Shown here in pieces: positions 11,353 through 56,433 of a stretch of 64,000 nt of DNA (its first letter is position 1; each line of letters begins with the position of its first letter). Below the pieces are notes generated by a model, which was given only the letters and a program-made list of their open reading frames with translations, searched no databases and had not been told where the DNA came from. The stretch lies in NCBI RefSeq assembly GCF_055900595.2, contig NZ_CM148325.1; one strand, 5' to 3'. Made by a program: the position numbers and the translations under genes.

Positions 11353-11391
11353 ATTCTACAGGCCCACAGCAAGAGAGCCTGATAGTAACAG

Positions 11392-15923: not shown

Positions 15924-15939
15924 GATCCCTCCTTAGTTT

Positions 15940-16803
15940 CTAAATATTATCCCAGCCGGCAAAGCGCATTTTCTCTTCAATCCATTGACGTGCATGAATA
16001 ATTTCTAATAGAGGTTCCGTCGCTTTTTCTGTCCACATTTCTATCAGAAACGTTCCGCGATAATTAAGATTACGCAGGATCTTAAATAATTTAATAAAAT
16101 CTACACACCCTTCACCAAAAGGAACGTCACGAAATTGCCCTGGAGAATCAGGCGTTACTGGGTACGTATCTTTAAGATGGATTGCGGCAATTCGATCAAT
16201 CCCCTTTACCAGCTCACTTTCCAGTTCATTACCCCATGCGGTCAGATTGCCAACATCCGGATAAACGGTAAACCAAGGGGAATTAATTTTTGTATCCAGG
16301 ACTTTCCATTTACTAATAGAATTAATAAATGGCGTATCCATGATCTCTACAGCACACATAACTTGTGCCGCTGCGGCCTGTTCAGCTGTCCAGGCCATCG
16401 CATCTTCAAACCAGGCGATAGTTTCTTCATTCTGCGGCTCATAATAAACGTCATAGCCTGCCAGTTGGATTGTTCGAATCCCCAAATCCTGCGCCAGGCG
16501 TAACGCCTTCAACATAATCGTACGTGCCTGCTGACGAGTATCTCTATCATGGCTACCAAATGGAAAACGCCGGTGAGCAGACAGGCACATTGTCGGAATA
16601 CGGATCCCCGTTTGCTGAATGGCGCTAATAAGCTCCATACGCTCGGTGAGCGACCAGTCCAGGCGGGCGAGTCGTTCATCATTCTCATCTACCGACATCT
16701 CAACAAAATCAAAACCGCAAGATTTAGCCAGGGCTAGTTTCTCTACCCAACTGGTATTCCTGGGTAGCGCTTTTTCATAAATACCTAACGGGTGGCGTCG
16801 CAT
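15940..16803 (-). CDS. L-ribulose-5-phosphate 3-epimerase (UlaE/SgbU family, TIM barrel)
   Basis: 287-aa ORF; the N-terminal LGIYEKALP...FDFVEMSVDE...RLDWS...CLSAHRRFP pattern matches UlaE/SgbU closely. Confidence 0.82.
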   Translation of the reverse strand: MRRHPLGIYEKALPRNTSWVEKLALAKSCGFDFVEMSVDENDERLARLDWSLTERMELISAIQQTGIRIPTMCLSAHRRFPFGSHDRDTRQQARTIMLKALRLAQDLGIRTIQLAGYDVYYEPQNEETIAWFEDAMAWTAEQAAAAQVMCAVEIMDTPFINSISKWKVLDTKINSPWFTVYPDVGNLTAWGNELESELVKGIDRIAAIHLKDTYPVTPDSPGQFRDVPFGEGCVDFIKLFKILRNLNYRGTFLIEMWTEKATEPLLEIIHARQWIEEKMRFAGWDNI

Positions 16804-17879
16804 TATTTTCCCTCACGAGTGATCAATTGTTGTTGAAAGATTTTCCGGCTCTTATTCATGTCACGCTGCAACTGCCATTTTTGTTTGATGAATTTAAATG
16901 CCAGTGCGGCGATCAATGTGATCCCCCATACCGCCAGATTGAAATGCAAACTAAGTCCCAACAGACTAAGGCCGGTAGCAATAACCTGAAGCACAAGTAA
17001 GGCACAAAAAACATGACTGACTTTACCCGCCCCACCGAATGGATCTGTGCCTCCCAATACAATTGCAAGAACCGTCAAGAGCAGATAGGAATCGCCATAG
17101 CCCATACGCGCCGAATTAAATCGCGCGAGCATAATAAGACCTGCTAATACACACAACATGCTGGATATAGCATATATAGCAATTAATACGCGGTCGGTGC
17201 GAATACCGCTAAACCATGTGGCGTTAATATTACTGCCACACATATAAATCGTTTTTCCCGTACGGGTTTTGCCGAGGAACAGAGCTAAAGCAACGGTGGT
17301 GACGATAAAAATTATCATCGGTACTGGGATCCCCATGATAACTTCAGACCCAATACTGCGGACTACTGGTGGCATACCACTTAAAGCTGCCCCCTTAGTC
17401 AGGTAAATACCGATACCACTAATAATGGTCATGCTACCCAATGTGACCAAAATAGGGTGAGCGCCTATATGAGAAATAATTGACCCAGTAATAGCTCCAA
17501 TGATGATGGCAATAAGCATCGCCCCGACAATAGCCAGGAAGAGCCAAAACAACTGACTACCTGTAGATGCATCTGCGGGTACATATTGAATCAACAGCCA
17601 GGCCATAAACAGGCTGGTCAGATTCGCAGTACCGATGATTGCCAGATTGAGCCCCCCGCTCAACATGGGTATAAACATCGCAAACGTGAGCAACCCAAGC
17701 TCTGGCAATTGAAATGCAATGCTCAGAAAAGTATTGCCGGTGAAAAAACGCCCCGGCATTACCAGACTAAATAACACCACCGCAATAAAACATATTGATA
17801 ATAAGCCTGAACTGGTACCATCTAGTGGAAAAAATATCCGCTTGTTCATTTCGATCCTCCCGTTAGACGAAACCAACAT
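16803..17879 (-). CDS. monosaccharide ABC transporter permease (CUT2 family)
   Basis: 358-aa polytopic membrane protein immediately downstream of a paralogous permease. True start may be the internal Met (MNKRIFF) at 17849. Confidence 0.75.
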   Translation of the reverse strand: MLVSSNGRIEMNKRIFFPLDGTSSGLLSICFIAVVLFSLVMPGRFFTGNTFLSIAFQLPELGLLTFAMFIPMLSGGLNLAIIGTANLTSLFMAWLLIQYVPADASTGSQLFWLFLAIVGAMLIAIIIGAITGSIISHIGAHPILVTLGSMTIISGIGIYLTKGAALSGMPPVVRSIGSEVIMGIPVPMIIFIVTTVALALFLGKTRTGKTIYMCGSNINATWFSGIRTDRVLIAIYAISSMLCVLAGLIMLARFNSARMGYGDSYLLLTVLAIVLGGTDPFGGAGKVSHVFCALLVLQVIATGLSLLGLSLHFNLAVWGITLIAALAFKFIKQKWQLQRDMNKSRKIFQQQLITREGK

Positions 17880-18855
17880 CAGTTTCTTTACGTTTTTTGT
17901 AATGGGTCACACAAATCGCCGAGACAATAACCACTCCAATAACGATATTGACGAAATAACTCGAGATGCCAATCAAATTAAGGCCGTTTTTAAGAATACC
18001 GATAAGAAATACGCCCATAAGCGTACCAATGACCGTACCACGTCCGCCTGATAAACTGGCACCGCCCAATACCGCTGCAGCCAGCACATCCAACTCTCCG
18101 CCAACCAATGCATTCGGCACAACTTCACTCATACGGTAAGCTTGCAGCATTCCACCAATTGCTGCAGCGGCACCAAGATAACCATAAGCAAACAGATAAA
18201 TTAGCGACACCCGAATCCCAATACGTCTTGCTGATTCGGTATTCCCTCCCACGGCATAAAGCTGACGCCCAATATGGGTTTTGTTCATTATCATCCACGT
18301 CAGAAATGCCATTCCCAGCATAACCACTAACGGTAATCCGATCTGGTAATCTTCTCCGCCAAATTCAAAACTCAGGAAAGAACGCTGCGTAATCCACCAA
18401 TCCGGTAAATCGTAAATACTGTGGCCATTAGTCAACCACATCAACATACCGAACAGTAGCGACTGCATACTAATCGTAATGATGATGGAAACGACATTAA
18501 GGTAATAAATAAGAATAGCGTTTATCAAACCAAAAATGATGCCAAGAAAAACAGCAAACACCAGACAGAAAAATGGATTTGATAGCGTTTCATTAAGCAG
18601 TAACGACGCCACAACATATTGCACAACCGAAGCTACTGCTGCAAAAGAGATATCAATTCCGCCAGTAACCAATACGACAAATAATCCGAGGGCGAAAATA
18701 CCCGTTACGGCATAACTTTCCGAGAGATCGAGCAAGTTCTGTATTGATAAAAACTCATCGCTCATGATGGAAAAAAATACCAGCATGAGAACAATGACCC
18801 ATCCTAACCAAGCTTCGACTGAACGAGGAAACCGCAGCCGCATAAAGCTAACCAT
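17863..18855 (-). CDS. monosaccharide ABC transporter permease (CUT2 family)
   Basis: 330-aa polytopic membrane protein; start overlaps the ATPase stop by 8 nt (translational coupling). Confidence 0.75.
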   Translation of the reverse strand: MVSFMRLRFPRSVEAWLGWVIVLMLVFFSIMSDEFLSIQNLLDLSESYAVTGIFALGLFVVLVTGGIDISFAAVASVVQYVVASLLLNETLSNPFFCLVFAVFLGIIFGLINAILIYYLNVVSIIITISMQSLLFGMLMWLTNGHSIYDLPDWWITQRSFLSFEFGGEDYQIGLPLVVMLGMAFLTWMIMNKTHIGRQLYAVGGNTESARRIGIRVSLIYLFAYGYLGAAAAIGGMLQAYRMSEVVPNALVGGELDVLAAAVLGGASLSGGRGTVIGTLMGVFLIGILKNGLNLIGISSYFVNIVIGVVIVSAICVTHYKKRKETDVGFV

Positions 18856-20365
18856 TAATCACCTCCGCCAACTGCTGCTCGGTATAATTCGAAGGCAACA
18901 GCTCATTAATAATCTTTCCGCGCTTCATATGAAAAATACGATCGCAGTTATAATAAGCTTCTGGTGCTTCATCAGTAATTAATATCACTGAAATACCCAC
19001 ACCTGAAAGCCGATGAATAAGCTGGTAAATACTATCTTTTGCGCCAATATCTACACCTACCGTTGGCGCATCCAGAATTAAAACCTTAGGTCGTGTTAAA
19101 ATCCATTTAGCCAGGACAACCTTTTGTTGATTGCCGCCAGATAGCGTTGAAAGTGGATTATTTGGATCGGTGACTTTAATATCCAAATCCTGGATCCACT
19201 CCTTGACTAAGGTTTCTTTTCGATTTTCATCAATAAACCCCGATGCCGTCTTTAAACGATCCAGAATCGAGAGCACCATATTATCGCTGATAGATTGGGG
19301 TAATACGGCCCCCAGTGTCAGGCGATCTTCTGAAACATATGCTATTCCCAGTTTTACCGCATGCGTGTTGTCTTTAATTGTAACGGGCTTACCTTCCAGA
19401 TAAATATCACCACTATCTGGTCGAGTAATACCGAAAAGACTCAATGCTAATTCAGTTCTCCCCGCACCAAGTAAACCACACAATCCCAGAACCTCGCCCT
19501 GGTGTAGTTTTAGAGAAACATCTTCAAATTGCCCTTTTCTGCATAATTTGTTTAGTTCAAGGACTACTTTGCCTTCAACGCTATTTGGTAGCTTCTTCTG
19601 GTGGACTATAGTTTTTCCGGTCATTAACTCAGTAATATCGCCCGGAGAAAGTTGATTGGCAGCCCACGTTCCAATTATCTCTCCATCACGGATGACCGTA
19701 ATCCGATCTGAAATTTCCTTAACTTCATCAAGGCGGTGGCTAACAAAAACTACGGTAATATTTTTATCGCGTAAGTAATTCACTGTGCGTAGTAATTGAT
19801 TAACTTCTGTACGCGTCAATGATGCCGTTGGCTCGTCCATGATGACTAAGCGGGCATCGGCAATCAGAGCCCGGCAAATCGCGACCTGTTGGCGTTGTGC
19901 AATCGGCAAATGTTGTACTAACGCATCAGGATCGAGATTGAATTGCAGCTCCTGAATTATTTTCTGCGATACATCTCGAAGTTGTTTTTTTCTGTGCAGC
20001 CCTAAATATCCCTTCAGGTTGTATTCAAAAGCGATATTTTCAGCAACAGAAAGATTTGGGAATAAAGAAAGATCCTGATATATCACCTGAATACCCAGTT
20101 CCCGAGCTTTATCAGGAGAAAGACGAGTCCAGGACTTACCATCTATAATAATTTCACTTCCCGAATCAGGGACATAAACACCACACAGCGTTTTGATCAG
20201 AGTACTTTTACCACACCCATTCGCACCAGCAAGACAATGAACCTCACCTTTATTTAAGGTAAGATTGATATTCTTTAGAGCCCTATGGCCACCGAAACTT
20301 TTCGTTAGTGACCTTAGCGTCACTAATGGTTGCTCCGCATTCTTCTCTATAATATGAGGCATCAT
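18848..20365 (-). CDS. sugar ABC transporter ATP-binding protein with duplicated nucleotide-binding domains
   Basis: 505-aa ORF with Walker A GANGCGKST, a second P-loop GLLGAGRTE and the ABC signature LSGGNQQKV; architecture of RbsA/AraG/LsrA-type importers. Confidence 0.85.
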   Translation of the reverse strand: MMPHIIEKNAEQPLVTLRSLTKSFGGHRALKNINLTLNKGEVHCLAGANGCGKSTLIKTLCGVYVPDSGSEIIIDGKSWTRLSPDKARELGIQVIYQDLSLFPNLSVAENIAFEYNLKGYLGLHRKKQLRDVSQKIIQELQFNLDPDALVQHLPIAQRQQVAICRALIADARLVIMDEPTASLTRTEVNQLLRTVNYLRDKNITVVFVSHRLDEVKEISDRITVIRDGEIIGTWAANQLSPGDITELMTGKTIVHQKKLPNSVEGKVVLELNKLCRKGQFEDVSLKLHQGEVLGLCGLLGAGRTELALSLFGITRPDSGDIYLEGKPVTIKDNTHAVKLGIAYVSEDRLTLGAVLPQSISDNMVLSILDRLKTASGFIDENRKETLVKEWIQDLDIKVTDPNNPLSTLSGGNQQKVVLAKWILTRPKVLILDAPTVGVDIGAKDSIYQLIHRLSGVGISVILITDEAPEAYYNCDRIFHMKRGKIINELLPSNYTEQQLAEVING

Positions 20366-20428
20366 AATATTCCTGAATACGACTAAAGGAATTCCGGGTC
20401 AAATTTGACCCGGTGATTTACAGTAAAA

Positions 20429-21433
20429 TTACAAGCCTAGCTTCACTAAACGTCGTGTATTTTCAAGATCGAGCTTTTCTGGATTATCACTATAAATAGT
20501 GTTGTTATTAACCTTGATCTCGCCCATATCACCGATTTTTACACCGTCTTTAATAGGTTCACCGTTCATCATTGCCGTCGCAACCTGGACAAAAACCTTA
20601 CCCGCAATCATAGGGTTTGAAATATATCCCCCATCAATGGCACCTTTTTCGAGTAGCTTAATTCCCTGACCTGGAGTGAAGGTTCCAAAAACGCAAATTG
20701 CATCATTTTTCTTCCGCTTATCAATAGCACGCCCCGCACCAATTGGTCCTTGTGAACCAAATGACATAATGCCTTTAAGATCTTTATATTTAGACATTAA
20801 ATCGTTCGTCGTGCGCATTGAATCATCCACCGACTCAGCAACACCAAAACGATCTTCAACCAACGTCATATTTGGATAATGTTCTTTTTGATAGGCAATC
20901 GCGGCATTGGCCCAGTCATTTACCAAAGGCACAGTCAGACTGCCGACAAACATGGCGTATTTACCTTCTTCGCCCATACACTTCGCCATATCTTTCATAT
21001 GATTGGCACCCATTGTCTGGGTATTTAACAACTCAAAATCCCAATCTGCATTTTTTTGATCTGGTGATTCGTGGGTAATAACTTTAATACCGGCTTCTTG
21101 TGCACGCTTAAGTACAGGTTCAAGAACCTTTGCATCGTTAGGAACAACACCAATAACATCCACTTTTCGTGCAATTAAATCTTCAATCGCCCGAACCTGT
21201 TCAGCTGGATCTGCCGTTGTAGGGCCGACCTGCCATGCATCAACCCCCAATAGTTTTCCTTCATTTTTAATGCCTTGTTCCATCACATTAAACCAGGGAA
21301 TTCCACCGACTTTTACTACTACCCCCATCGTAAAAGGTTTATTCGCTTTTTGTGATGTTACAGTCTGATCAGCCCATGCAGCAGTGGAAGATAATACGGT
21401 AGCAATAAGGCAGGGTAAGATTAATTTTTTCAT
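20429..21433 (-). CDS. periplasmic sugar-binding protein (type I PBP, ABC substrate-binding component)
   Basis: 334-aa ORF with an N-terminal signal peptide (MKKLILPCLIATVLSSTAAWA) and LsrB/RbsB-like fold features; first gene of the transporter operon. Confidence 0.75.
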   Translation of the reverse strand: MKKLILPCLIATVLSSTAAWADQTVTSQKANKPFTMGVVVKVGGIPWFNVMEQGIKNEGKLLGVDAWQVGPTTADPAEQVRAIEDLIARKVDVIGVVPNDAKVLEPVLKRAQEAGIKVITHESPDQKNADWDFELLNTQTMGANHMKDMAKCMGEEGKYAMFVGSLTVPLVNDWANAAIAYQKEHYPNMTLVEDRFGVAESVDDSMRTTNDLMSKYKDLKGIMSFGSQGPIGAGRAIDKRKKNDAICVFGTFTPGQGIKLLEKGAIDGGYISNPMIAGKVFVQVATAMMNGEPIKDGVKIGDMGEIKVNNNTIYSDNPEKLDLENTRRLVKLGL

Positions 21434-21555
21434 CGTAATTTCCTTAAGAAATAGTTCAGGTGTCAGGAAAACTCGATATAATATCGACCTGACTATTTAT
21501 ATAATTTATAATCCCTTAGGCATTGATTAATAATTTAGACAATAAATAACGCCTA

Positions 21556-22365
21556 TTATTTATCAACCTCCACAATGTTTAATTGTGGAAATTGTGTTCG
21601 ATACCGAGTATCTGTACAAACATTAGTCACCAGAATATCGATTTCATCCAGCGTGCATATTTTACTAAATGCATACTGTTCAAACTTAGTGGAGTCGACC
21701 AGCAATATTTTTTGTCCTGACACCTGAAGCATCACCTGTTTAAGTCTGGCATTAATTTCACTGCCATCGCGGACACCATTCCCCAGATTCAACCCCTGGC
21801 ATGAAAAGAAAAAACTGTTGATTTGAAAATTTCGGATCGCACTCTCTGCAACCGGGCCATGAAAATCATCATGTCGCTCAGAATACTCACCACCGATACC
21901 AATAATTCGAACTCGATCACGGCAAGCTAACGCCTGAATTATCCGTAATGAATTTGTAACTACGGTAACATCTATATCGGGAATTTGACGAGCTAAAAAC
22001 CAACAAGTACTACTGTTATCCATTAAAATACAATCACCAGGGTGAATAAATTGCAATGCGGCCTTCGCAATTCTGGCTTTTATATCAGGATTTTCTTCAG
22101 TCCGTTTACGGAATGATTCCGCACGATCGATACTATTATCTTGCCACGCATTATCGGCGAGCATAACCGGAGCGCTATCAGATGAATCCAGAGCGACCGC
22201 GCCACCAAAGCTACGGATTAACTTTTTGTTGCGCTCCAGTACCGTTAAATCCCGACGAATTGTCTCAGGAGACGCTTTAAATAATCGTGATAATTCAGTT
22301 ACCCGCACAGCACCTTGTTTTTGTACATGTGCGCATATCATTTTATGGCGCTCTGCCTGCAACAT
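21556..22365 (-). CDS. DeoR-family transcriptional regulator
   Basis: 269-aa ORF with an N-terminal HTH (VRVTELSRLFKASPETIRRDLTVLE) and a C-terminal DeoR sugar-phosphate-binding domain. Confidence 0.8.
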   Translation of the reverse strand: MLQAERHKMICAHVQKQGAVRVTELSRLFKASPETIRRDLTVLERNKKLIRSFGGAVALDSSDSAPVMLADNAWQDNSIDRAESFRKRTEENPDIKARIAKAALQFIHPGDCILMDNSSTCWFLARQIPDIDVTVVTNSLRIIQALACRDRVRIIGIGGEYSERHDDFHGPVAESAIRNFQINSFFFSCQGLNLGNGVRDGSEINARLKQVMLQVSGQKILLVDSTKFEQYAFSKICTLDEIDILVTNVCTDTRYRTQFPQLNIVEVDK

Positions 22366-22806
22366 AGTATCGGTCCGTTATTATCAAATTAGCATGCTTA
22401 TATAATTAACTGTTCCCTCATAAAATAAAGTGATAGGAATCAAGATTCATTTTATAATTATAATCGCAAACAGGAATGGTGATCTTTATCACAAATTAAA
22501 TTGAGAACACTCTACTATTTGACATTACTTTGAGATATCGGTCACTAAATAAGTCTTATTCTGCCATCTAACGAAAAATTTAAATACAAAAACAAAAATA
22601 ATCGGGCATAGCAATCGCTTCCATTCATGACCGAATACGCCCGAATAAAACCGTTTATACCCACTTATCCTCTTTCGTTGCCTTCTTACATGCCTTGAAT
22701 ATTTTACATTTCTTATATTCAGCGTAATTTAGGAAACATAATTTATGAGCAAAAAAAGCCCAAACTCAAAAGTTAAAGTTTATTTATATAATACATACAG
22801 ATTATC

Positions 22807-23511
22807 GTGGAGTTAAAAATGGATATGCTAAAGGAAAAAGTTCTTGCTGCGAATTTATCATTACCCCTTCATCAGTTAGTGACGTTTACCTGGGGAAATG
22901 TTAGTGGTGTTGATCGCGAAAAAGGTGTCATGGTTATTAAACCTTCTGGGGTCGAATACAGCCAAATGGGCATTGCAGATATGGTGGTAGTGGATTTACA
23001 AAGTGGTGAAGTTATTGATGGACACAGGAAACCCTCTTCAGACACCGATACTCATCTGGCGCTATACCGTGCTTTCCCGGATATTGGTGGTATCGTTCAT
23101 ACCCATTCCCGACACGCCACAATATGGGCTCAGGCCGGAAAAGATCTCACGGCCTTTGGGACAACCCACGCTGATTATTTCTACGGCACTATCCCCTGTA
23201 CACGCCCCATGAAGGATGACGAAATTAATGGACAATATGAATATGAAACGGGGCGAGTGATTATTGAAACGTTCAGACAACGAGAAATATCTCCCGCTGA
23301 CATTCCGGCTGTTTTAGTAAACAGTCATGGCCCCTTTGCCTGGGGAACTGATCCCGCGAACGCCGTGCATAACGCCGTTGTACTTGAAGAAATTGCCTAT
23401 ATGAATCTCTTTACACAACAACTACAGCCCCATCTTACGGCTATTCAACAGCCTCTACTGGATAAGCATTTTTTACGCAAGCATGGTGCCAATGCTTATT
23501 ACGGGCAGTAA
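22807..23511 (+). CDS. L-ribulose-5-phosphate 4-epimerase (class II aldolase fold, AraD/SgbE/UlaF family)
   Basis: 234-aa ORF closely resembling AraD ([74 protein letters not shown]), including the conserved metal-binding His residues. Confidence 0.85.
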
Positions 23512-28091: not shown

Positions 28092-28142
28092 GTAGGCCAA
28101 ACAATGTCGGATGCGATGCTTGCGCATCTTATCCGACCTACA
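28092..28142. repeat. REP (repetitive extragenic palindromic) element
   Basis: GTAGGCCAAACAATGTCGGATGCGATGCTTGCGCATCTTATCCGACCTAC, an imperfect palindrome of the REP type just downstream of argE. Confidence 0.7.
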
Positions 28143-32977: not shown

Positions 32978-33030
32978 TGCCGGATGCGACGCTTGACGCG
33001 TCTTATCCGGCCTACAGATCGCGGCGGTAG
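32978..33030. repeat. REP element
   Basis: TGCCGGATGCGACGCTTGACGCGTCTTATCCGGCCTACA, canonical REP consensus, followed by a partial second unit. Confidence 0.75.
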
Positions 33031-33155
33031 GCCAGATAAAGCGACTGAAACTGCCGCAATGTTTACATCGCACTCCCATCAGGCCACACTTTTCAGGTGG
33101 CCTTTTTTCATAATGCCAGTTACTGTTTTCCCGTCTATGTACCTAAGGGAATAAC

Positions 33156-42437: not shown

Positions 42438-43541
42438 ATGGACCGCATTATTCAATCACCGGGTAAATACATCCAGGGCGCAGATGTCATTAATCGTCTG
42501 GGCGAGTACCTGAAGCCGCTGGCAGAACGCTGGTTAGTGGTGGGTGACAAATTTGTTTTAGGTTTTGCTCAATCCACTGTCGAGAAAAGCTTTAAAGATG
42601 CTGGACTGGTAGTAGAAATTGCGCCGTTTGGCGGTGAATGTTCGCAAAATGAGATCGACCGTCTGCGTGGCATCGCGGAGACTGCGCAGTGTGGCGCAAT
42701 TCTCGGTATCGGTGGCGGAAAAACCCTCGATACTGCCAAAGCGCTGGCACATTTCATGGGTGTTCCGGTAGCGATCGCACCGACTATTGCCTCTACCGAC
42801 GCGCCGTGCAGCGCGCTGTCTGTTATCTACACCGATGATGGTGAGTTTGACCGCTATTTGCTGTTGCCAAATAACCCGAATATGGTCATTGTCGACACCA
42901 AAATCGTCGCGGGCGCACCTGCACGTCTGTTAGCGGCGGGTATCGGCGATGCGCTGGCGACCTGGTTTGAAGCGCGTGCTTGCTCTCGTAGCGGTGCGAC
43001 CACAATGGCGGGCGGTAAGTGTACTCAGGCAGCGCTGGCGCTGGCTGAACTGTGCTACAACACGCTGCTGGAAGAAGGCGAAAAAGCGATGCTTGCCGCC
43101 GAACAGCATGTAGTAACTCCAGCACTGGAACGCGTGATTGAAGCGAACACCTATTTGAGCGGCGTTGGCTTTGAAAGCGGTGGGCTGGCTGCGGCGCACG
43201 CGGTGCATAACGGCCTGACTGCAATCCCTGATGCCCATCACTATTATCATGGTGAAAAAGTGGCATTCGGTACGCTGACGCAGCTGGTTCTGGAAAATGC
43301 GCCGGTGGAAGAAATCGAAACCGTAGCTGCACTTAGCCATGCGGTAGGTTTGCCAATAACCCTCGCTCAACTGGATATTAAAGAAGATGTCCCGGCGAAA
43401 ATGCGGATTGTGGCAGAAGCGGCATGTGCAGAAGGTGAAACCATCCACAACATGCCTGGCGGCGCGACGCCAGATCAGGTTTACGCCGCACTGCTGGTAG
43501 CCGACCAGTACGGTCAGCGTTTCCTGCAAGAGTGGGAATAA
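42438..43541 (+). CDS. gldA: glycerol dehydrogenase (iron-containing alcohol dehydrogenase family)
   Basis: ORF 42384..43541; the internal start [24 protein letters not shown] gives 367 aa, the length I recall for GldA; [13 protein letters not shown]-binding motif. Confidence 0.92.
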
Positions 43542-43549
43542 TCTATGCC

Positions 43550-43725
43550 AAACTCCCGGCTTGTCCGGGAGTTTGAACGCAAAATTGCCTGATGCGCTAC
43601 ACTTATCAGGCCTACGAAATATATGCAATGCATTGAATTTACGTGTTTTTTATGTCTGACAAGGCGTTCACGCCGCATCCGGCACTCTGTGCCATTAATC
43701 TGATACTCCCACGTTGTTCGGGAGT
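43550..43725. repeat. terminator hairpin plus a cluster of REP units (BIME-like) between gldA and yijF
   Basis: Hairpin AAACTCCCGG-CTTGT-CCGGGAGTTT after the gldA stop; REP units TGCCTGATGCGCTACACTTATCAGGCCTAC and TGACAAGGCGTTCACGCCGCATCCGGCA; further hairpin ACTCCCACGTTGTTCGGGAGT. Confidence 0.75.
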
Positions 43726-43812
43726 TTTTATCCGCTTCTGGACATTTTCTCCACAGAACAATCGTTAGCCCGGAAGGTCGAATCTGTGAATATTTTTTCA
43801 CGGACGAAACAG

Positions 43813-44430
43813 ATGAAAGCTTCACTGGCGTTGTTCAGTCTTCTGACGGTATTTACCAGTTACTCCTTAAAATCTCCCGCTGTTCCACCAACCGTGGTAC
43901 AAATCCAGGCCAACACCAATCTTGCCATCGCAGACGGTGCCAGACAGCAAATTGGCAGCACGCTATTTTACGATCCGGCGTATGTGCAGCTTACTTATCC
44001 TGGCGGTGATGTCCCGCAAGAGCGCGGCGTATGTTCCGATGTGGTGATCCGTGCCCTGCGCAGCCAGAAGGTCGATTTGCAGAAACTGGTTCACGAAGAT
44101 ATGGCGAAGAATTTTGCCGATTATCCGCAAAAGTGGAAGTTAAAACGCCCGGACAGCAACATCGATCACCGTCGGGTGCCTAATCTGGAAACCTGGTTTA
44201 CCCGCCACGATAAAACGCGCCCCACCAGCAAAAACGCCAGTGACTACCAAGCGGGCGATATTGTCTCCTGGCGATTAGATAATGGGCTGGCACATATTGG
44301 GGTGGTTTCAGATGGCTTCGCCCGCGACGGTACGCCGCTGGTGATACATAACATTGGCGCAGGCGCGCAGGAAGAAGACGTGCTGTTTAGTTGGCAGATG
44401 GTGGGGCACTATCGGTATTTTGCTAAATAA
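43813..44430 (+). CDS. yijF: DUF1287 family periplasmic protein
   Basis: ORF 43714..44430; the internal start MKASLALFSLLTVFTSYS (signal peptide) gives 205 aa, the length I recall for YijF. Confidence 0.85.
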   Translation: MKASLALFSLLTVFTSYSLKSPAVPPTVVQIQANTNLAIADGARQQIGSTLFYDPAYVQLTYPGGDVPQERGVCSDVVIRALRSQKVDLQKLVHEDMAKNFADYPQKWKLKRPDSNIDHRRVPNLETWFTRHDKTRPTSKNASDYQAGDIVSWRLDNGLAHIGVVSDGFARDGTPLVIHNIGAGAQEEDVLFSWQMVGHYRYFAK

Positions 44431-49237: not shown

Positions 49238-50797
49238 TTATTTAATATCTTTCACGCGCATACCGTTGATCTGTTCATCCGTGATGGTGTTACCCGCTTT
49301 AAAGTAATCAACCACCGCGTGATAAACGTAATAACCGCCCGTCGTATTGCGCGCTTTACCCTCGGTAAACGCGGTAAAACCATCTCCACCATCAGCAAGG
49401 AAACTCTGAGTAGCAATGTGGTAAACCGTCGCATCTTCAATCGGTTTGCCATTCAGCGTCAGCGAGATAACCCGCTGACCAACCGGCTTGCTGCTGTCGT
49501 ACTTCATTTCCAGGCCTTTCGATACCTGTAAAACGCCATTACTTAAACTTGCGCCGTGTTCCATCAAACCGCGTAATTGTTTACCCGTGAGTTCCATCGT
49601 CACCAGTTCGTTGGGGAACGGGAAGGTACTGATGACGCCACCCATCGTAATTGCACCCGCCGGGATCTCATTGCGAATCCCACCAGAGTTGGTTAACGCC
49701 AACTGGGTATTTTTACCCGCCGCTACCAGTAAAGCGTCCGCCGCCAGGTTCCCCAGGGATGCCGATTCACCATAGGCACGTTTTAATTCAACTGGCGATT
49801 GCGCCACCGTTTGCTGCACGACTTCATCCAGCTTTTTATTCCAACTATCAATCACCTGTTTTGTTTGCGCATCGGGCTTCCACTCGTCGGCGTAAAGGGT
49901 TTTAAGCTCGAAGTTTTTCACCGTAAAAGTGTGCGGTTTCTCTTTGTAGTCGAGAACCAGTTTACCCACATCAATCCCACCGCTGTCAGTGGAGAGGATG
50001 AGCGTATTGCCGACTTTAATCGGTTCCGGCGTACCCACATGTGCATGCCCGGTGATCAAAATATCCAGCCCTTTCACCTGACTTGCCGTCTGAATATCTT
50101 TATCCAGTGCGCGGCGCACATCTGTGCCCCCCATACTGGACTGGCGGGCCGGAACACCTTCGTGAATCAGCGCAACGGTCAAATCAACCTTGCCTTTGAG
50201 TTCATCGATATAACGTTGTAGCCATTTAATTTCATCACGCGCCTCAATACCCACTCGCGTTGCCGCAGATACCGTATCATTAAAGGCAAATACACCGTGC
50301 AAACCTATAACACCAATTTTCACGCCGTCTTTTTCAATAATGGTATATGGCTTATCCCAGAATGATTTACTGCTGTTCTGATAAAAAACATTACCCTGCA
50401 CAATCGGGAATTGTGCCTGACTCAACTGTAATAACGTATTGTCCCAGCCGTGATCAAATTCATGATTACCTATAGTGGCCGCATCGAACGGCATGGTATT
50501 CATAATATCGATAATCGCCTTGCCTTTAGTCAGGCTGCTGATATACGGCCCGGTAAAATAGTCACCCGCATCAAAAAACCAGGTCGCTTTGTTTTTAGCT
50601 TTTTCTTGTTTAACAAGCGTAGTGATATTTGCCCAGCCGCCAATATCCCGTTTACCCTCAGCAATCCACGGCACTTTATAGGGCTCTACATGTGCGTGGA
50701 GGTCATTGGTATAAATAATGGTGACATCTTTGGCGCAGGCCCAAAACGGCAGTGTTAATGCGATACCCGCAGCAAGCATTTTAATTTTCATAAACAA
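49238..50797 (-). CDS. secreted 5'-nucleotidase / UDP-sugar hydrolase family metallophosphoesterase (UshA-like), paralog 1
   Basis: 519-aa ORF with a signal peptide ([18 protein letters not shown]), calcineurin-like motifs ([30 protein letters not shown]) and a C-terminal 5'-nucleotidase domain with the FPF nucleobase clamp. Start may be M3 or M7. Confidence 0.8.
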
Positions 50798-50923
50798 TCC
50801 CTTCCAGTGAGATAAAGGATTGCTACATTACGTTCTGAAAGGCTTTTTTATGTGAGAATACTCACATCCAGAGGCAATAACTGTAGGACAAAATCGACGA
50901 CCTTATGAAATCGTTGGTGATAT

Positions 50924-52051
50924 ATGTCAAATCTGTTTGCGATTAATGTCTGTAAAACGTTCGGTTGTCGAAATTTGGGATTGGCCTCATCGGAAGATTA
51001 CAGTTGGCCAGACTATAAACTGGGTTTTCCGGCACTGCACTGCCAGGCATGCGGAAGTTACCCCCCTTTGTTTGATGAACAACAATTTCGTGACTGGTTG
51101 TCAGTTCACATGACTGCGTGTGCCATAGAAACAGGGCATTTTTGTCCATCATGCTATTGTAAAGAAAAGATTTTTTATGGCCACAACCCGCATGGAACAC
51201 AACGCGTTCAATGCCGTTCATGCAAAAAAGTCTGGACTCCGAAACAGCAGCCAGCAAGAGAAATTACGTATCCCCAGTCCATTGAAACCGTTCAACTGTT
51301 CATGCCCTTTCAAGGAGCCAGCGCACTACAAAAGCTCTATGTTTTAGTCAGTCTTGACGCCACTCGTGGCAACATCCTTCATCTCTCCACGAATTATACG
51401 CAACATCAGACAGGAGACAGTCTGCGGTACAGTTACAGAGGCAATACAGAACCAACTGAGCACCATAGCGATATTGTGCAGAGGGTAGATATGCGTGAAG
51501 CGCAATTCTTGCGCCGGAGCCAGTTCGATGAAATTCAGTATGGCAGTGCTGTGCTCAAGCGCAATGGCAAGGGAGCCATACTACGCCCGGTTATCACGGC
51601 TCACGGGCATTTCAGAATACTGAAAATCCGCTTTCCACATGTCAAAACGCATATCATTTCACACGAATGTTTTCTGAGAGGCGCAATTATTACAGCCTGG
51701 GCAGATCAGTTCCGCCAACAACAAGGCGAACTTTGGTTCGTAGAAGAAGAAATCAGCGACCGTAACGCTGATATTCCCTGGCATTTTCAGGGAACGACAT
51801 ACCATGGTTGGTGGCAAAATCAGTGGCAACGCTGGGGGCAGGGGAATAACAGCAAGATGGTCTGCCTGCTCACAGGAGTCTCCTTAGAAAGGGGCGCAAA
51901 TGTTTCTCTGGCAACCAGTCGTTGCTTTATCACATGGCTGACAGACCAACACGACTTTACCCAAAGCGCGTTATTATCCGCAGGTCGCGTAACGAAAATG
52001 CTGACCTCACTGGCGTTAAAATACAATGAATCGCTCACTCCATCTTGTTAG
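50924..52051 (+). CDS. hypothetical Cys-rich protein with a transposase-type zinc-ribbon motif
   Basis: 375-aa ORF. N-terminal Cys pairs (CKTFGC, HCQACG, FCPSCYC, QCRSCKKVW); the segment CPSC...GTQRVQCRSCKKVW resembles the IS1/IS1595 transposase zinc ribbon. No recognisable DDE triad or HTH seen by eye. Confidence 0.5.
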   Translation: MSNLFAINVCKTFGCRNLGLASSEDYSWPDYKLGFPALHCQACGSYPPLFDEQQFRDWLSVHMTACAIETGHFCPSCYCKEKIFYGHNPHGTQRVQCRSCKKVWTPKQQPAREITYPQSIETVQLFMPFQGASALQKLYVLVSLDATRGNILHLSTNYTQHQTGDSLRYSYRGNTEPTEHHSDIVQRVDMREAQFLRRSQFDEIQYGSAVLKRNGKGAILRPVITAHGHFRILKIRFPHVKTHIISHECFLRGAIITAWADQFRQQQGELWFVEEEISDRNADIPWHFQGTTYHGWWQNQWQRWGQGNNSKMVCLLTGVSLERGANVSLATSRCFITWLTDQHDFTQSALLSAGRVTKMLTSLALKYNESLTPSC

Positions 52052-52280
52052 TCAATACACTCGACAAACGACCATAAATTAATGGGATCACTATTTCTCA
52101 TTTAATTAAATATATGAATGTATGACTGAAAAATATAATCACAGTCAATGTTTAATTAATAACATTATTTGTTACTAAGATCACATAATACTTTCCTGAC
52201 CTATGCTTACATAAAAATAAGACACGGAGTTCCTTTTATTTAAATAATTCAACCAATGTAACAACCCCTATCAAGGAGGG

Positions 52281-53834
52281 ATGATGAGAACTGTATTTAC
52301 GACTTTATCAGTCATATTCAGCGTGATGTTTTCTCACAGTATACTAGCTCAGGACGTTACTATTTATTATACGAATGATATTCACGCACATGTCAATCCG
52401 GCAAAAATTCCCGCTGTTGATAAGAACAGACTTGTAGGTGGTATGGCTAATATTGCAGGCATCGTTAATGAAGCGAAGAAAAAAAACAAAGATGTCTTTT
52501 TCTTTGATGCAGGCGACTATTTTACCGGTCCGTATATCAGTACCCTGACCAAAGGTGAAGCTATTATTGATATCATGAACACCATGCCCTTTGATGCGGT
52601 GTCCGTTGGTAATCACGAGTTCGATCACGGCGTGCCCAATATGGTATCTCAGTTATCAAAAGCAAAATTCCCCATTCTGCTGGGAAATATTTACTACACC
52701 GATACAAATAAACCAGTTTGGGATCATCCGTGGACTATTATCGAAAAAGATGGTTTAAAGATTGGTGTGATTGGATTGCATGGTGCATTCGCTTTCTATG
52801 ATACAGTCGCGGCAAAAGCACGTGAAGGCGTAGAAGCCAGAGACGAAATTAAATATTTAAATAAAGCACTTGCAGAATTAAAAGGTAAAGTCGACATTAC
52901 CGTTTTGCTAATTCACGAAGGTGTTCCGGCGCGTCAATCAAGCTTTGGTAGTAAAGATGTGGAGCGGCTACTACAGGCAGATATTGAGACAGCTAAAAAA
53001 GTGAATGGTGTTGATGTCTTAATTACCGGTCACGCACATGTCGGAACACCGCAACCAATAAAAGTTAATAACACATTAATTGTATCTACCGATGCATACG
53101 GCACCGACATCGGAAAACTTGTGCTTGATTACAATCCGAAAACGAAGAAAATTGATAGTTATAATGGTGAGTTAATCACCATCTTCGCAGATCAATTTAA
53201 ACCTGACACCATCGTTCAAAATACTATCGATAAATGGAGTGCAAAGCTTAACAAAATAACACAGGAAGTTGTCGGCCATTCTCCCGTAGTTTTAACACGT
53301 GAGTATGGCAGTTCTTCTTCTACCGGTAACCTTATTCTTGATGCAATGATGGAAAAAACACCAGATGCCATTGCCGGATTTCAAAATAGCGGTGGGATGC
53401 GAGCTGATTTTCCTAAAGGTGATATCACGCTGGGAGATGTTATTAGCACATTCCCCTTTAATAATGACCTCATCGAGATGGATTTGACGGGCCGCGATCT
53501 CAAATCGTTGATGACGCATGCAACCAATCTAACTAACGGTGTGTTACAGGTTTCAAAAAGCGTTGCGGTTGTCTATGACAGCAAAAAACCACTGAACCAA
53601 CGGTTAATCTCTTTCACCATTAACGGCAAACCCGTGGAAGATAATCAAACATATCGTATTGTCACGCACTCCTTTTGTGCCAGTGGTGGTGACGGTTTTG
53701 AAGCATTTTTGAATGGAAAAAATGTGAAGACGATACCGGGAACAACCTCGGCGGAATCTATCATCGATTATTTCAAAAATCATAAACCTGTCACCCCAGA
53801 CTTAACTAAACGAGTAATGGACGTCGCCAAATAA
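52281..53834 (+). CDS. secreted 5'-nucleotidase family metallophosphoesterase (UshA-like), paralog 2
   Basis: 517-aa ORF with a signal peptide (MMRTVFTTLSVIFSVMFSHSILA-QD) and the same catalytic motifs (YTNDIHAH, GDYFTGP, GNHEFD, GHAHVG, TFPF); the most divergent of the three copies. Confidence 0.8.
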   Translation: MMRTVFTTLSVIFSVMFSHSILAQDVTIYYTNDIHAHVNPAKIPAVDKNRLVGGMANIAGIVNEAKKKNKDVFFFDAGDYFTGPYISTLTKGEAIIDIMNTMPFDAVSVGNHEFDHGVPNMVSQLSKAKFPILLGNIYYTDTNKPVWDHPWTIIEKDGLKIGVIGLHGAFAFYDTVAAKAREGVEARDEIKYLNKALAELKGKVDITVLLIHEGVPARQSSFGSKDVERLLQADIETAKKVNGVDVLITGHAHVGTPQPIKVNNTLIVSTDAYGTDIGKLVLDYNPKTKKIDSYNGELITIFADQFKPDTIVQNTIDKWSAKLNKITQEVVGHSPVVLTREYGSSSSTGNLILDAMMEKTPDAIAGFQNSGGMRADFPKGDITLGDVISTFPFNNDLIEMDLTGRDLKSLMTHATNLTNGVLQVSKSVAVVYDSKKPLNQRLISFTINGKPVEDNQTYRIVTHSFCASGGDGFEAFLNGKNVKTIPGTTSAESIIDYFKNHKPVTPDLTKRVMDVAK

Positions 53835-53868
53835 AATATCATTTATCAGTCTATTTATTTAACAAGGA

Positions 53869-55494
53869 ATGCGAATGAAAACAGTGCAGCGTACTTTACT
53901 TGCCGCAACATTGCTGACTATTTTTTCGGTCTCAGCCATGGCGCAGGATGTCACGATTATTTATACCAATGATCTTCACGCTCATGTGGATTCTTATAAA
54001 GTGCCGTATATCGCAGACGGAAAACGCGACATTGGCGGCTTTGCCAATATATCTACTTTAGTAAAACAAGAGAAAGCGAAAAATAAAGCCACCTTTTATT
54101 TTGATGCTGGAGACTATTTCACCGGCCCTTATATCAGCAGTCTGACAAAGGGCGAAGCAATAATTGACATTATGAATACCATGCCTTTTGACGCAGTATC
54201 AATCGGTAATCATGAGTTTGACCATGGCTGGGATAATGCCCTGCGACAATTAAGCAAAGCGAATTTTCCTGTTTTATTGGGCAATGTTTATCATAAAGAG
54301 AGTGAGAAACCCTTCTGGAACAAGCCCTACACCATCCTGGAAAAAGATGGCATCAAGATTGGTATTATTGGGCTACACGGCGTATTTGCATTTAATGATA
54401 CGGTCTCGGAGCTCTCTCTCCAGGGACTCGATAATGACAATAATAACCGCTTTGATAAATCTTCCGAGACCCTTAAGAATCAGGGGATTGAAGCACGTGA
54501 TGAAGTGAAGTATTTGCAGCATTATATCGACGAGTTACGTGATAAGGTTGACCTCACTGTGGCGCTGGTTCATGAAGGCGTTCCGGCGCGTCAGTCCAGC
54601 ATTGGCAATACAGATGTTAGACGCGCTCTTGATAAAGATATTCAAACCGCTAGCAAGGTGAAAGGATTGGATATTCTGATTACCGGGCATGCCCACGTCG
54701 GAACGCCAGAGCCAATCAAAGTCGGCAACACCTTAATCCTTTCAACTGATAGTGGCGGTATCGATATTGGTAAATTAGTCCTTGATGTCAACCCTACAGC
54801 TCGTACCCATAAAATGAAGAGCTTTGAGCTGAAAACAGTTTATGCCGATGAATGGATACCCGATCCAACGACACAAAAAGTTATCAATGGCTGGAATAAA
54901 AAACTGGCGGATATTGTACGCCAACCAGTGGGTGAATCATCGATTGCATTAACTCGCGCCTATGGTGAGTCATCGCAACTAGGCAACCTGTTTACCGATG
55001 CAATGCTTGTCGCTGCTCCGACTGCACAGATTGCATTGATAAACTCCGGCAGCTTACGTGCGGATATAAATGCAGGCACGATTACCTTTGGCGACATTAC
55101 CAGTACATTCCCCTTCAAGAATGAACTTACTGAAATGGATCTCAGCGGTAAGGATCTGCGTAACCTACTGGAACACGGGGCATCGCTTACCAATGGCATC
55201 CTGCAAATGTCAAAAGGCGCAGAAATGCGCTATACCCCGCAGAAACCAGTAGGTCAGCGCATAGTATCTTTTAAAATTAATGGTGAAGAGATCGTTGATA
55301 CGAATATTTACCATGTTGCAACAACGACTTTCCTTGCACTGGGGGGCGATGGTTTTCTGGCATTCAAAGAAGGGAAAAATGTTCAGGTCCGCGCCGGAAA
55401 TAACATGTCCGATGTCGTGATCGATTATTTGAAGAAAGGCCACAAGATTACGCCTGCACAGGTAAATGAAATGCGGGTGGACGTTAGCAAATAA
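53869..55494 (+). CDS. secreted 5'-nucleotidase family metallophosphoesterase (UshA-like), paralog 3
   Basis: 541-aa ORF with a signal peptide (...FSVSAMA-QD) and the same motifs; very similar to paralog 1 (roughly three-quarters identical by eye) but with an extra roughly 24-aa Asn/Asp-rich insertion (ELSLQGLDNDNNNRFDKSSETLKNQG). Confidence 0.8.
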   Translation: MRMKTVQRTLLAATLLTIFSVSAMAQDVTIIYTNDLHAHVDSYKVPYIADGKRDIGGFANISTLVKQEKAKNKATFYFDAGDYFTGPYISSLTKGEAIIDIMNTMPFDAVSIGNHEFDHGWDNALRQLSKANFPVLLGNVYHKESEKPFWNKPYTILEKDGIKIGIIGLHGVFAFNDTVSELSLQGLDNDNNNRFDKSSETLKNQGIEARDEVKYLQHYIDELRDKVDLTVALVHEGVPARQSSIGNTDVRRALDKDIQTASKVKGLDILITGHAHVGTPEPIKVGNTLILSTDSGGIDIGKLVLDVNPTARTHKMKSFELKTVYADEWIPDPTTQKVINGWNKKLADIVRQPVGESSIALTRAYGESSQLGNLFTDAMLVAAPTAQIALINSGSLRADINAGTITFGDITSTFPFKNELTEMDLSGKDLRNLLEHGASLTNGILQMSKGAEMRYTPQKPVGQRIVSFKINGEEIVDTNIYHVATTTFLALGGDGFLAFKEGKNVQVRAGNNMSDVVIDYLKKGHKITPAQVNEMRVDVSK

Positions 55495-55504
55495 TAAAAA
55501 AATT

Positions 55505-55540
55505 ATAATGCCATTCATTCACTGAATGGCATTATTTTTC
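55505..55540 (+). terminator. intrinsic terminator after nucleotidase paralog 3
   Basis: Hairpin AATGCCATTCA-TTCAC-TGAATGGCATT followed by ATTTTTC. Confidence 0.7.
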
Positions 55541-55572
55541 TCTAAATCAACAATAAATAATGAGATATATTT

Positions 55573-56433
55573 ATGTGTATAAAAAAGCACGGGATAGCTT
55601 TATCGATTCTATTAATACCTTGCATTGGAAACGCTCAGGAAATTAAAAGTGAGGAAGGCTGGTTACATCAAAGCTTGAATGTCATTGGTCGCACAGACTC
55701 TCGCTTTGGCCCAAGGCTGACTAACGACCTCTACCCTGAATATACTGTAGCAGGAAGAAAAGACTGGTTTGATTTTTATGGTTATGTTGATCTACCAAAA
55801 TTCTTTGGCGTCGGCAGTCACTATGATGTTGGGATCTGGGATGAGGGCTCACCACTATTTACGGAAATAGAACCTCGGTTTTCCATTGACAAATTGACCG
55901 GATTAAATCTTGCGTTCGGCCCTTTTAAAGAATGGTTCATTGCAAACAACTATGTCTATGATATGGGTGACAACCAGTCATCCCGGCAAAGTACATGGTA
56001 TATGGGGCTTGGTACAGATATCGACACGGGTCTACCAATTAAGCTTTCTGCCAATATATACGCCAAGTATCAGTGGCAAAACTATGGTGCCGCTAATGAA
56101 AATGAATGGGACGGATATCGATTCAAAATAAAATATAGCATTCCTCTTACCCATTTATTCGGAGGGCGATTGGTATACAATAGTTTTACTAACTTTGATT
56201 TTGGCTCCGATCTTGCGGACAAATCACACAATAATAAACGAACCAGTAATGCTATTGCTTCAAGCCATATCCTTTCCCTGCTATATGAACACTGGAAATT
56301 TGCATTTACACTACGTTATTTTCACAACGGTGGACAATGGAATGCTGGGGAGAAAGTTAACTTCGGAGATGGTCCATTTGAATTAAAAAACACAGGATGG
56401 GGAACCTATACTACTATTGGTTATCAATTTTAA
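55573..56433 (+). CDS. Tsx-family outer-membrane nucleoside-specific channel (paralog of tsx)
   Basis: 286-aa ORF with a signal peptide ([23 protein letters not shown]). Long blocks match E. coli Tsx as I recall it ([83 protein letters not shown]), and the C-terminal aromatic residue is typical of beta-barrels. Confidence 0.85.

What the first reader, a model, noticed from the sequence alone, without database searches (positions are those of the whole stretch)
43550..43725. Dense cluster of palindromic units (BIME-like) between gldA and yijF
Within about 175 bp there are a terminator-like hairpin, two REP units and a further hairpin. Such clusters bind gyrase and IHF and are hotspots for rearrangement; similar single REPs occur after argE and eptC.
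Basis: seen in the sequence. Interest (0 to 1): 0.2.

Follow-up and report, generated by a model that had tools for sequence, protein, structure and literature searches.

The report
Ordinary BIME-1 repeat after gldA
The stretch between gldA and yijF is a textbook E. coli repeat element of the BIME-1 type, two inverted REP palindromes around an IHF-type linker with a hairpin on each side; it sits at the same site in K-12 and other Escherichia species, so it is real but ordinary.

Summary
Window 43549-43744 holds:
- a strong hairpin (H1) 7 nt after the gldA stop codon;
- a z1-type REP with 1/29 mismatches to consensus;
- a 34-nt L linker;
- an inverted y-type REP with 5/34 mismatches;
- terminator-like hairpins ahead of yijF.

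Shuffled sequence gives no such REP matches. The z1-L-y layout is that of BIME-1, the IHF-binding class, not the gyrase-rich BIME-2 class.

The same element lies at this site in K-12, E. albertii, E. whittamii and cryptic Escherichia clades. Salmonella has decayed REP remnants there. Among 5,426 complete E. coli genomes, 4,588 carry the BIME-1, 641 carry a BoxC (triplex-motif) pair instead, and none has an empty site.

In this window's rare, divergent lineage the y unit has lost its GTAG foot through 5 substitutions in 11 nt.

The "rearrangement hotspot" idea holds at this locus, but through an insertion sequence. IS621 sits exactly in the z1 tail (ATCAGGCCTAC) in 168 genomes. Together with a second IS621 copy in a REP near dppA/proK, it bounds a 455-500 kb inversion spanning the K-12 oriC position; both orientations occur.

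The function (mRNA 3' protection, transcription attenuation, IHF binding) is inferred from the literature, not shown here. Verdict: already known, low interest.

The parts
43539..43541 (+). gldA stop codon (TAA)
   Evidence: Annotation of the 100% identical strain Z0117EC0005; sequence.
43549..43575 (+). H1: 11-bp hairpin 7 nt after the stop codon, with no U-tract after it
   Evidence: -19.2 kcal/mol, z -4.4. A strong hairpin at the same position is kept in Salmonella (-22.4, z -6.0) and in E. whittamii and SCPM-O-B-8794 through changes on both sides of stem pairs.
43576..43585 (+). Outer flank motif of the BIME-1 on the z1 side (AACGCAAAAT)
   Evidence: GGCAATTTTGCGTT is shared with independent BIME-1 copies at other loci (alignment A4). 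It is 11 nt longer at this locus in E. whittamii and SCPM.
43586..43615 (.). z1-type REP (T+GCCTGATGCGCTACACTTATCAGGCCTAC); CTAC lies at its 3' end on the + strand, i.e. GTAG on the - strand
   Evidence: 1/29 mismatches to the z1 consensus, none expected in shuffles. Fold -10.6 kcal/mol, z -3.3.
43605..43615 (+). Exact natural IS621 target ATCAGGCCTAC inside the z1 tail
   Evidence: It is the only exact copy in the window. Target sequence from PMC11208160. IS621 is inserted at the orthologous CT in 168 genomes.
43616..43649 (.). L linker of BIME-1 (34 nt), with an IHF-like core ATTCAATGCATTG at 43626-43638 on the - strand
   Evidence: It aligns with the L linkers of independent BIME-1 copies; the core AAATTCAATATATTGC is conserved. 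The IHF consensus matches with 1 mismatch, but such matches occur at chance level in the window (66 found, 59.8 expected).
43650..43684 (.). y-type REP, inverted relative to z1, with a decayed foot: K-12 GTAGGCCGGAT reads TTATGTCTGAC here
   Evidence: 5/34 mismatches, all in the tail. Alignment with K-12 and other Escherichia. Weakened fold.
43682..43694 (+). Small hairpin GGCAC-TCT-GTGCC overlapping the y head
   Evidence: Seen in folds; conserved in K-12.
43705..43729 (+). H2: ACTCCC-N9-GGGAGT followed by a T run; a diverged direct copy of H1
   Evidence: 19 of 23 positions identical to H1. The local alignment score of 26 exceeds all 2000 shuffles (maximum 20) but only just exceeds the best unrelated match in the window (24). 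Consensus structure with the A-tract and U-tract; fold -8.4 kcal/mol.
43715..43752 (+). Alternative terminator-like stem TGTTCGGGAGT/GCTTCTGGACA followed by TTTTCTCC; mutually exclusive with H2
   Evidence: Terminator scan, region MFE, comparison across species.
43813..43815 (+). yijF start codon; the 83 nt before it are almost invariant across Escherichia
28105..28141 (+). Single divergent REP 16 nt after the argE stop
32978..33043 (.). REP after eptC (32978-33015) plus the tail remnant of an inverted partner (33027-33043)

Best explanation
This is an old, fixed BIME-1 element (also called RIP or RIB). Its order is z1 REP, 34-nt L linker, inverted y REP. It lies in the 3' untranslated region of gldA, between a conserved hairpin next to the stop codon (H1) and terminator-like hairpins (H2 and an overlapping alternative stem) ahead of yijF.

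What is shown here:
- its composition and its match to the BIME-1 family;
- its presence at the same site across the genus Escherichia;
- its variation among E. coli genomes.

What is inferred from published work on REP and BIME elements:
- On the gldA transcript, H1 and the REP stem-loops block 3'-to-5' exonucleases. They would set the stable 3' end of the message, while transcription stops further downstream at the U-tract hairpins or by Rho. This insulates yijF.
- On the DNA, the L linker is a site for IHF.
- The REP feet are substrates for the REP-associated transposase TnpA-REP and for IS621.

In this window's lineage the y unit has lost GTAG and part of its stem. That unit is probably no longer a TnpA-REP substrate and is a weaker RNA hairpin. 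The z1 unit is intact.
For: - Consensus scan: z1 1/29 and y 5/34 mismatches, none in shuffles.
- Alignment with independent BIME-1 copies from other loci shows the same y - L - z1 - flank order and a conserved L core.
- The definition of BIME-1, and the requirement of GTAG plus a stem mismatch for TnpA-REP binding and cleavage, come from PMC3333891.
- IHF is assigned to the BIME-1 linker and gyrase to BIME-2 in PMC2817692 and PMC6379681.
- Stable stem-loops without U-tracts protect Rho-terminated mRNAs from PNPase and RNase II; REPs are among them (PMC6061677).
- The element is orthologous in K-12, E. albertii, E. whittamii, Escherichia sp. E1V33 and SCPM-O-B-8794.
- A hairpin at the H1 position is maintained in Salmonella through changes on both sides of stem pairs.
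- The site is always occupied in E. coli.
Against: - No experimental data on this locus were found. gldA and yijF are absent from the one Term-seq supplement that could be searched.
- The IHF motif match has no statistical weight on its own.
- The y unit folds no better than shuffles in this strain (z -1.2).
- H2 is weak here (-8.4 kcal/mol) and nearly absent in K-12 (-3.4), so which stem terminates transcription is unresolved.
- 641 genomes do without the BIME altogether, which argues against an essential role.
Confidence: 0.88

Rival explanations
1. It is a gyrase-type BIME-2 or an atypical BIME, that is, a strong chromosomal gyrase site.
For: A y REP is present, and y units are the preferred gyrase cleavage sites within BIME-2 (PMC6379681).
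Against: There is no z2 unit, no short S linker and no tandem repetition. The linker is the long L type and the partner is z1 (definition).
Confidence: 0.03
2. It is a recently inserted or currently mobile REP doublet (a REPIN-like unit moved by the REP-associated transposase).
For: Two inverted REPs form a long hairpin: arms 43586-43596 and 43674-43684 are 91% complementary. Diverged direct repeats (H1, H2) flank it like a target duplication. In Escherichia sp. MOD1-EC7003 the unit upstream of yijF is inverted and present twice in tandem.
Against: It is at the same site, in the same orientation, in E. coli, E. albertii, E. whittamii and cryptic clades, and REP remnants are there in Salmonella. 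No empty site was found among 5,426 genomes. GTAG is lost from the y unit here.
Confidence: 0.04
3. The region encodes a discrete small RNA, either naRNA-like or derived from the gldA 3' UTR, and is not merely cis-acting structure.
For: Weak Rfam matches to the REP-derived naRNA4 (20.3 bits) and to ES036 (21.9 bits). [quoted passage not shown]
Against: The scores are far below the gathering thresholds (59.5 and 37.6), with E-values of 0.19 to 6. These matches are what any REP would give. No promoter-like site lies inside the region.
Confidence: 0.04
4. The palindromes are unrelated chance hairpins or plain terminators.
For: H2 and the y unit fold no better than many shuffles (z -1.8 and -1.2).
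Against: Near-perfect matches to REP consensus with none in shuffles; family alignment; conservation across species.
Confidence: 0.01

Closest known systems
BIME-1 (RIP / RIB elements) of E. coli
   Same: One z1 and one y REP in inverse orientation; a long conserved L linker with the IHF-type core; single copy; located at the 3' end of a transcription unit; the same outer flank on the z1 side as other copies.
   Different: In this strain the y unit has lost GTAG and half of its outer stem. The L linker is 34 nt with TGCA instead of TATA in the unspecified centre of the IHF core. The usual outer motif on the y side (AAAGTGCGCTTTGTTCAT) is absent at this locus in all Escherichia examined.
BIME-2 (z2/y tandem arrays, gyrase sites)
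   Same: Built from REPs in alternating orientation; contains a y unit.
   Different: No z2, no S, s, l or r linkers, and no tandem repetition.
REP mRNA stabilisers (the malE-malF type)
   Same: REP stem-loops lie in the transcribed 3' region directly after a coding sequence, where they can block 3' exonucleases.
   Different: No stability or 3'-end data exist for gldA. Here the strongest hairpin (H1) is not a REP.
REPINs of Pseudomonas (REP doublets mobilised by RAYT transposases)
   Same: Two inverted REPs plus a spacer form one long hairpin unit.
   Different: This copy has stayed at one site across a whole genus and shows decay, not recent spread.
BoxC / TMECO triplex-motif pairs
   Same: An inverted pair of these occupies the same slot between H1 and H2 in 641 E. 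coli genomes.
   Different: Unrelated sequence family (CCCTCTCCC...GGGAGAGGG...GGGTGAGGG); absent from this window.

Membership tests
E. coli REP (palindromic unit) | 30-40-nt imperfect palindrome matching the y, z1 or z2 consensus | tested here: met
   z1 1/29 and y 5/34 mismatches; no full-length match in 50 shuffles.
E. coli REP (palindromic unit) | Conserved GTAG (CTAC on the other strand) at the foot of the palindrome | tested here: inconclusive
   Present in z1 (CCTAC, 43611-43615). Absent from y in this window (TTAT), although GTAG is present in K-12, E. albertii, E. whittamii, E1V33 and SCPM.
E. coli REP (palindromic unit) | Extragenic, and present in many copies per genome | tested here: met
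   It lies between gldA and yijF. Five REP or REP-remnant sites occur in the window. REP-containing queries hit the 40-piece limit per genome.
E. coli REP (palindromic unit) | Binding and cleavage by TnpA-REP | not testable with these tools
   Published work requires GTAG and a stem mismatch (PMC3333891). By that rule the y unit here should fail and z1 should pass.
BIME-1 (RIP/RIB) | One y and one z1 REP in inverse orientation | tested here: met
BIME-1 (RIP/RIB) | Long conserved L linker between them | tested here: met
   The linker is 34 nt (35-36 nt in K-12 and other loci). It aligns with the L linkers of independent copies at mtlA-mtlD, ysaA-avtA and others.
BIME-1 (RIP/RIB) | Single copy, not a tandem array | tested here: met
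BIME-1 (RIP/RIB) | IHF binds the L linker | not testable with these tools
   The core ATTCAATGCATTG fits WATCAANNNNTTR with 1 mismatch, but such matches are as frequent as chance. Support comes only from homology of the linker.
BIME-2 | z2 and y units with short linkers, in tandem copies | tested here: not met
Intrinsic (Rho-independent) terminator | G+C-rich stem directly followed by a U-tract | tested here: inconclusive
   H1 has a strong stem but no U-tract. H2 has a weak stem with U5. The stem 43715-43744 has 11 pairs, 4 of them G-U, followed by UUUUCUCC. The last two stems exclude each other.
naRNA4 (Rfam RF02564) | Score at or above the family's gathering threshold | tested here: not met
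   20.3 bits against 59.5.
IS621 natural target | The 11-nt sequence ATCAGGCCTAC | tested here: met
   Exact at 43605-43615. IS621 occupies the orthologous site in 168 genomes. No IS621 is present at this site in the window.

The most novel reading that the evidence does not exclude
H1 and H2 may be two copies of one ancestral gldA terminator hairpin. On this reading the hairpin was duplicated when the BIME-1 entered its U-tract, and the two copies have since been kept alike by gene conversion.

The evidence in favour:
- Citrobacter freundii has a single canonical terminator at this position.
- In SCPM-O-B-8794 the two copies are 21/22 identical, and they differ from the E. coli pair.
- In MOD1-EC7003, H2 carries the loop of E. 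coli H1.

If such flanking hairpin duplications were general, they would be a footprint of how BIMEs insert, which is still unknown.
Probability: 0.15. Interest if true: 0.35.

Novelty: already known. Interest (0 to 1): 0.1.

Why it matters
It matters little for the window itself. REP and BIME elements have been described since the 1980s and 1990s, and this copy is shared with K-12.

Its use is as annotation. It marks the 3' end of the gldA message and a probable IHF site. It also marks an intact IS621 target, which in other E. coli lineages has received the IS and become one end of a large invertible segment that spans the K-12 oriC position.

The decayed y unit is a small example of how fixed REPs erode once they are no longer renewed.

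Tried and rejected
- A fuzzy-regex REP scan timed out. It was replaced by an ungapped mismatch scan.
- Rfam gave only sub-threshold matches that any REP or hairpin would give, both for the window region and for the BoxC allele.
- The IHF consensus scan was uninformative: 66 matches against 59.8 expected.
- Boccard and Prentki 1993 (RIB elements) is not held in the library.
- Term-seq supplements: none is held for PMC6061677, and PMC7815308 has no gldA or yijF entry.
- After I thought yijF was confined to Escherichia among enteric bacteria. This was wrong. A Salmonella contig has gldA followed by a DUF1287 gene; the earlier scan was limited by its peptide patterns.
- RNAalifold on H1 across genera mis-aligned the stems because the loop lengths differ. 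The compensatory changes were therefore read directly from the sequences and from single folds.
- A search for an empty site (a predicted H1/H2 recombinant) found none. The best hit is split into two pieces 154 bp apart.
- My first models of the inversion were superseded. They proposed either REP-REP recombination or recombinase action on a 10-nt CAGTATCTAC identity. Genomes were then found with IS621 at both junctions and in both orientations.

Full report
**Where the window comes from.** The 501 bases around the finding are 100% identical to E. coli strain Z0117EC0005, isolated from a dog in South Korea. They are only about 92-94% identical to most other E. coli. That record's annotation puts the gldA stop at window 43539-43541 and the yijF start at 43813, leaving a 271-bp spacer. 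K-12 has 274 bp there. The lineage is rare and divergent:
- gldA, yijF and yijE are 94-96% identical to K-12;
- a ppc segment is at least 99% identical in only 18 of 5,426 complete genomes.

**Checking the observation.** Reading the sequence and running the repeat finder gave the following parts.
- H1, 43549-43575: an 11-bp perfect stem with a 5-nt loop. It folds at -19.2 kcal/mol, z -4.4.
- REP1, 43587-43615: 1/29 mismatches to the z1 consensus (ungapped scan).
- REP2, 43650-43683 on the minus strand: 5/34 mismatches to the y consensus.
- H2, 43705-43725: ACTCCC/GGGAGT followed by five T; -8.4 kcal/mol.

Fifty shuffles of the window produced no full-length REP match. The whole 211-nt region folds with z -3.9. 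The described objects are therefore real and not due to chance.

The side remark about argE and eptC is essentially right. One divergent REP follows argE (28105-28141). One full REP plus the tail of an inverted partner follows eptC (32978-33043).

**What it is.** Ton-Hoang et al. (PMC3333891) define BIME-1 as a z1 and a y REP in inverse orientation, in single copy, separated by a long, well conserved linker L that often carries an IHF site. BIME-2 is z2 plus y with short linkers, in tandem copies.

I aligned them with the window element. They share the same order, the same L core (AAATTCAATATATTGC; the window reads AAATTCAATGCATTGC), and the same outer flank on the z1 side (GGCAATTTTGCGTT). 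This is a BIME-1.

The IHF consensus WATCAANNNNTTR matches at 43626-43638 on the minus strand with one mismatch. Such matches are as common as chance in this window (66 found, 59.8 expected). The case for IHF therefore rests on homology of the linker, not on the motif.

The literature assigns IHF to the BIME-1 linker and strong gyrase binding to BIME-2 (PMC2817692, PMC6379681).

**Comparison with K-12 and other species.** K-12 has the same two units at the same place. So do E. albertii, E. whittamii, Escherichia sp. E1V33 and the genome labelled E. coli SCPM-O-B-8794. The element therefore predates the divergence of these Escherichia species.

A Salmonella Typhimurium contig also has gldA followed by a DUF1287 gene, the yijF homologue. 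Its spacer holds:
- a strong hairpin right after the stop codon (-22.4 kcal/mol, z -6.0);
- two decayed REP-like units that no longer fold;
- a weak hairpin followed by TTTTTTATC.

Citrobacter freundii lacks yijF and yijE. There gldA is followed by a single canonical terminator, AAAAATCCCCGC-GATT-GCGGGGATTTTTT.

**What is special to this window.** The foot of the y unit reads TTATGTCTGAC where K-12 has GTAGGCCGGAT. That is five substitutions in 11 nt, while the remaining 23 nt of the unit are unchanged. The RNA fold drops to -11.0 kcal/mol, against -15.1 in K-12 and -20.9 for the consensus. Mutating GTAG abolishes TnpA-REP binding and cleavage in vitro, so this unit is probably dead as a transposase substrate. 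This is an inference. The z1 unit is intact.

**The flanking hairpins.**

*H1.* It has no U-tract, so it is not a canonical terminator. It fits the class of stable stem-loops without U-tracts that mark the processed 3' ends of Rho-terminated mRNAs and protect them from PNPase and RNase II (PMC6061677). Its stem is kept by paired changes:
- E. coli: ACTCCCGG...CCGGGAGT;
- E. whittamii and SCPM: ACTCCCGC...GCGGGAGT;
- Salmonella: ATACTCCTGAC...GTCAGGAGTAT.

*H2.* It is a diverged direct copy of H1, identical at 19 of 23 positions. The local alignment score is 26, and the best of 2000 shuffles scores 20. The best unrelated match in the 64-kb window scores 24, so the similarity alone is only modestly significant. 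Two other observations support a real relationship:
- in SCPM the two hairpins are 21/22 identical to each other and differ from the E. coli pair;
- in MOD1-EC7003, H2 carries the loop of E. coli H1.

That pattern suggests a duplicated hairpin evolving in concert. I could not establish how the duplication arose.

*The alternative stem.* Downstream, H2 competes with a second stem at 43715-43744, which is followed by UUUUCUCC. That second stem is the more stable of the two in this window, K-12, E. albertii and O26. H2 wins in E. whittamii, E1V33 and SCPM. Which one terminates transcription is open.

**Variation among 5,426 complete E. coli genomes.**
- 4,588 have the BIME-1 allele.
- 641 have, between the same H1 and H2, a segment of about 180 bp with two inverted BoxC/TMECO triplex motifs instead (motif identified from PMC4666352).
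- None has an empty site.

Most of the remaining genomes carry IS621. The natural IS621 target is ATCAGGCCTAC (PMC11208160), which is exactly window 43605-43615 and the only exact copy in the window. IS621 is inserted at that CT in the orthologous z1 REP in 168 genomes.

Many of these genomes also carry a second IS621 in the z2 REP between dppA and proK, in inverted orientation. Both arrangements occur.
- Native: gldA-IS621-yijF (O103 RM8385; also 2013C-4225 and 97-3250, judged from coordinates).
- Inverted: gldA-IS621-RtT-proK together with dppA-IS621-yijF (E2865; O26:H11 11368; 07_3986; several others from coordinates 455-500 kb apart on opposite strands).

In K-12 coordinates the inverted segment runs from about 3.71 to 4.14 Mb. 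From my own knowledge, oriC lies at about 3.93 Mb, so the segment contains it roughly symmetrically.

A few genomes have IS-less junctions that read CTTATCAGTATCTAC instead of CTTATCAGGCCTAC. This looks like imprecise loss of the IS that leaves three bases of its right end. No paper in the library combines IS621, inversion and O26.

So "hotspot for rearrangement" is true of this locus. The agent is an IS that targets the REP, followed by IS-IS recombination.

**Mechanism and verdict.** The identity as a BIME-1 is shown. The functions are taken from published work on the family and were not tested for this copy: protection of the gldA 3' end, attenuation of transcription before yijF, IHF binding, and serving as a substrate for TnpA-REP and IS621. 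I found no 3'-end data for gldA. The fact that 12% of E. coli genomes replace the BIME with an unrelated repeat argues against an indispensable role.

The finding is correct, well placed and ordinary. It is an already known kind of element, already present at this site in K-12.

Noticed in passing
Orthologue of window 43605-43615 in other genomes: L079 13000-14310, L083, L084, L085: IS621 is inserted exactly in the z1 REP tail of this BIME in 168 of 5,426 complete E. coli genomes (O26, O103 and related strains). With a second, inverted IS621 in the dppA-proK REP it bounds a 455-500 kb segment, corresponding to about 3.71-4.14 Mb in K-12 and so spanning the oriC position. The segment is found in both orientations. 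No paper on this turned up in the library.
   Followed up: partly
L004 1500-1515; L077 3316-3331: REP tails reading CTTATCAGTATCTAC instead of CTTATCAGGCCTAC occur at IS-less inversion junctions, and at the native dppA locus of relatives. They look like recurrent imprecise loss of IS621 that leaves TAT from its right end (...ACAGTAT-CT-AC).
   Followed up: partly
L003 676-856 (the slot corresponding to window 43576-43700): In 641 genomes the BIME-1 is replaced, between the same two hairpins, by an inverted pair of BoxC/TMECO triplex motifs. No genome has the slot empty.
   Followed up: yes
Window 43549-43575 versus 43705-43727; L010 1225-1250 and 1393-1415; L011 about 300-330: The two hairpins flanking the BIME appear to evolve in concert. 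They are 21/22 identical to each other in SCPM-O-B-8794 but differ from the E. coli pair. In MOD1-EC7003, H2 has the loop of E. coli H1. The origin of the duplication is unexplained.
   Followed up: partly
L011 1-300: In Escherichia sp. MOD1-EC7003 the BIME-1 upstream of yijF is in the opposite orientation and present twice in tandem. The contig ends inside the repeats, so the gldA side is not visible.
   Followed up: no
Window 43730-43812: The 83 nt upstream of the yijF start are almost invariant across E. coli, E. albertii, E. whittamii and the cryptic clades, more so than neighbouring coding sequence. No Rfam match and no consensus promoter was found.
   Followed up: no
Window about 11390-23510: A block of about 12 kb lies between oxyR and argH, which as far as I recall are adjacent in K-12. 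It carries manD, an MFS transporter, a sugar ABC transporter, epimerases, an FGGY kinase, a DeoR regulator and an araD-like gene (annotation of the identical strain).
   Followed up: no
Window about 49240-56430: A block of about 7 kb lies between metF and metL, which as far as I recall are adjacent in K-12. It carries three metallophosphatase/5'-nucleotidase genes, a hypothetical protein and a Tsx-like channel.
   Followed up: no
Window 7467-7490: The hairpin just after trmA (TGCCGGATGCG-CT-AGCATCCGGCA) uses the REP head sequence but is not a full REP.
   Followed up: no
Whole window: The strain belongs to a rare divergent E. coli lineage. Sequences at least 99% identical occur in only 15-18 of 5,426 complete genomes at the two loci tested, with about 5% divergence from K-12.
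   Followed up: partly
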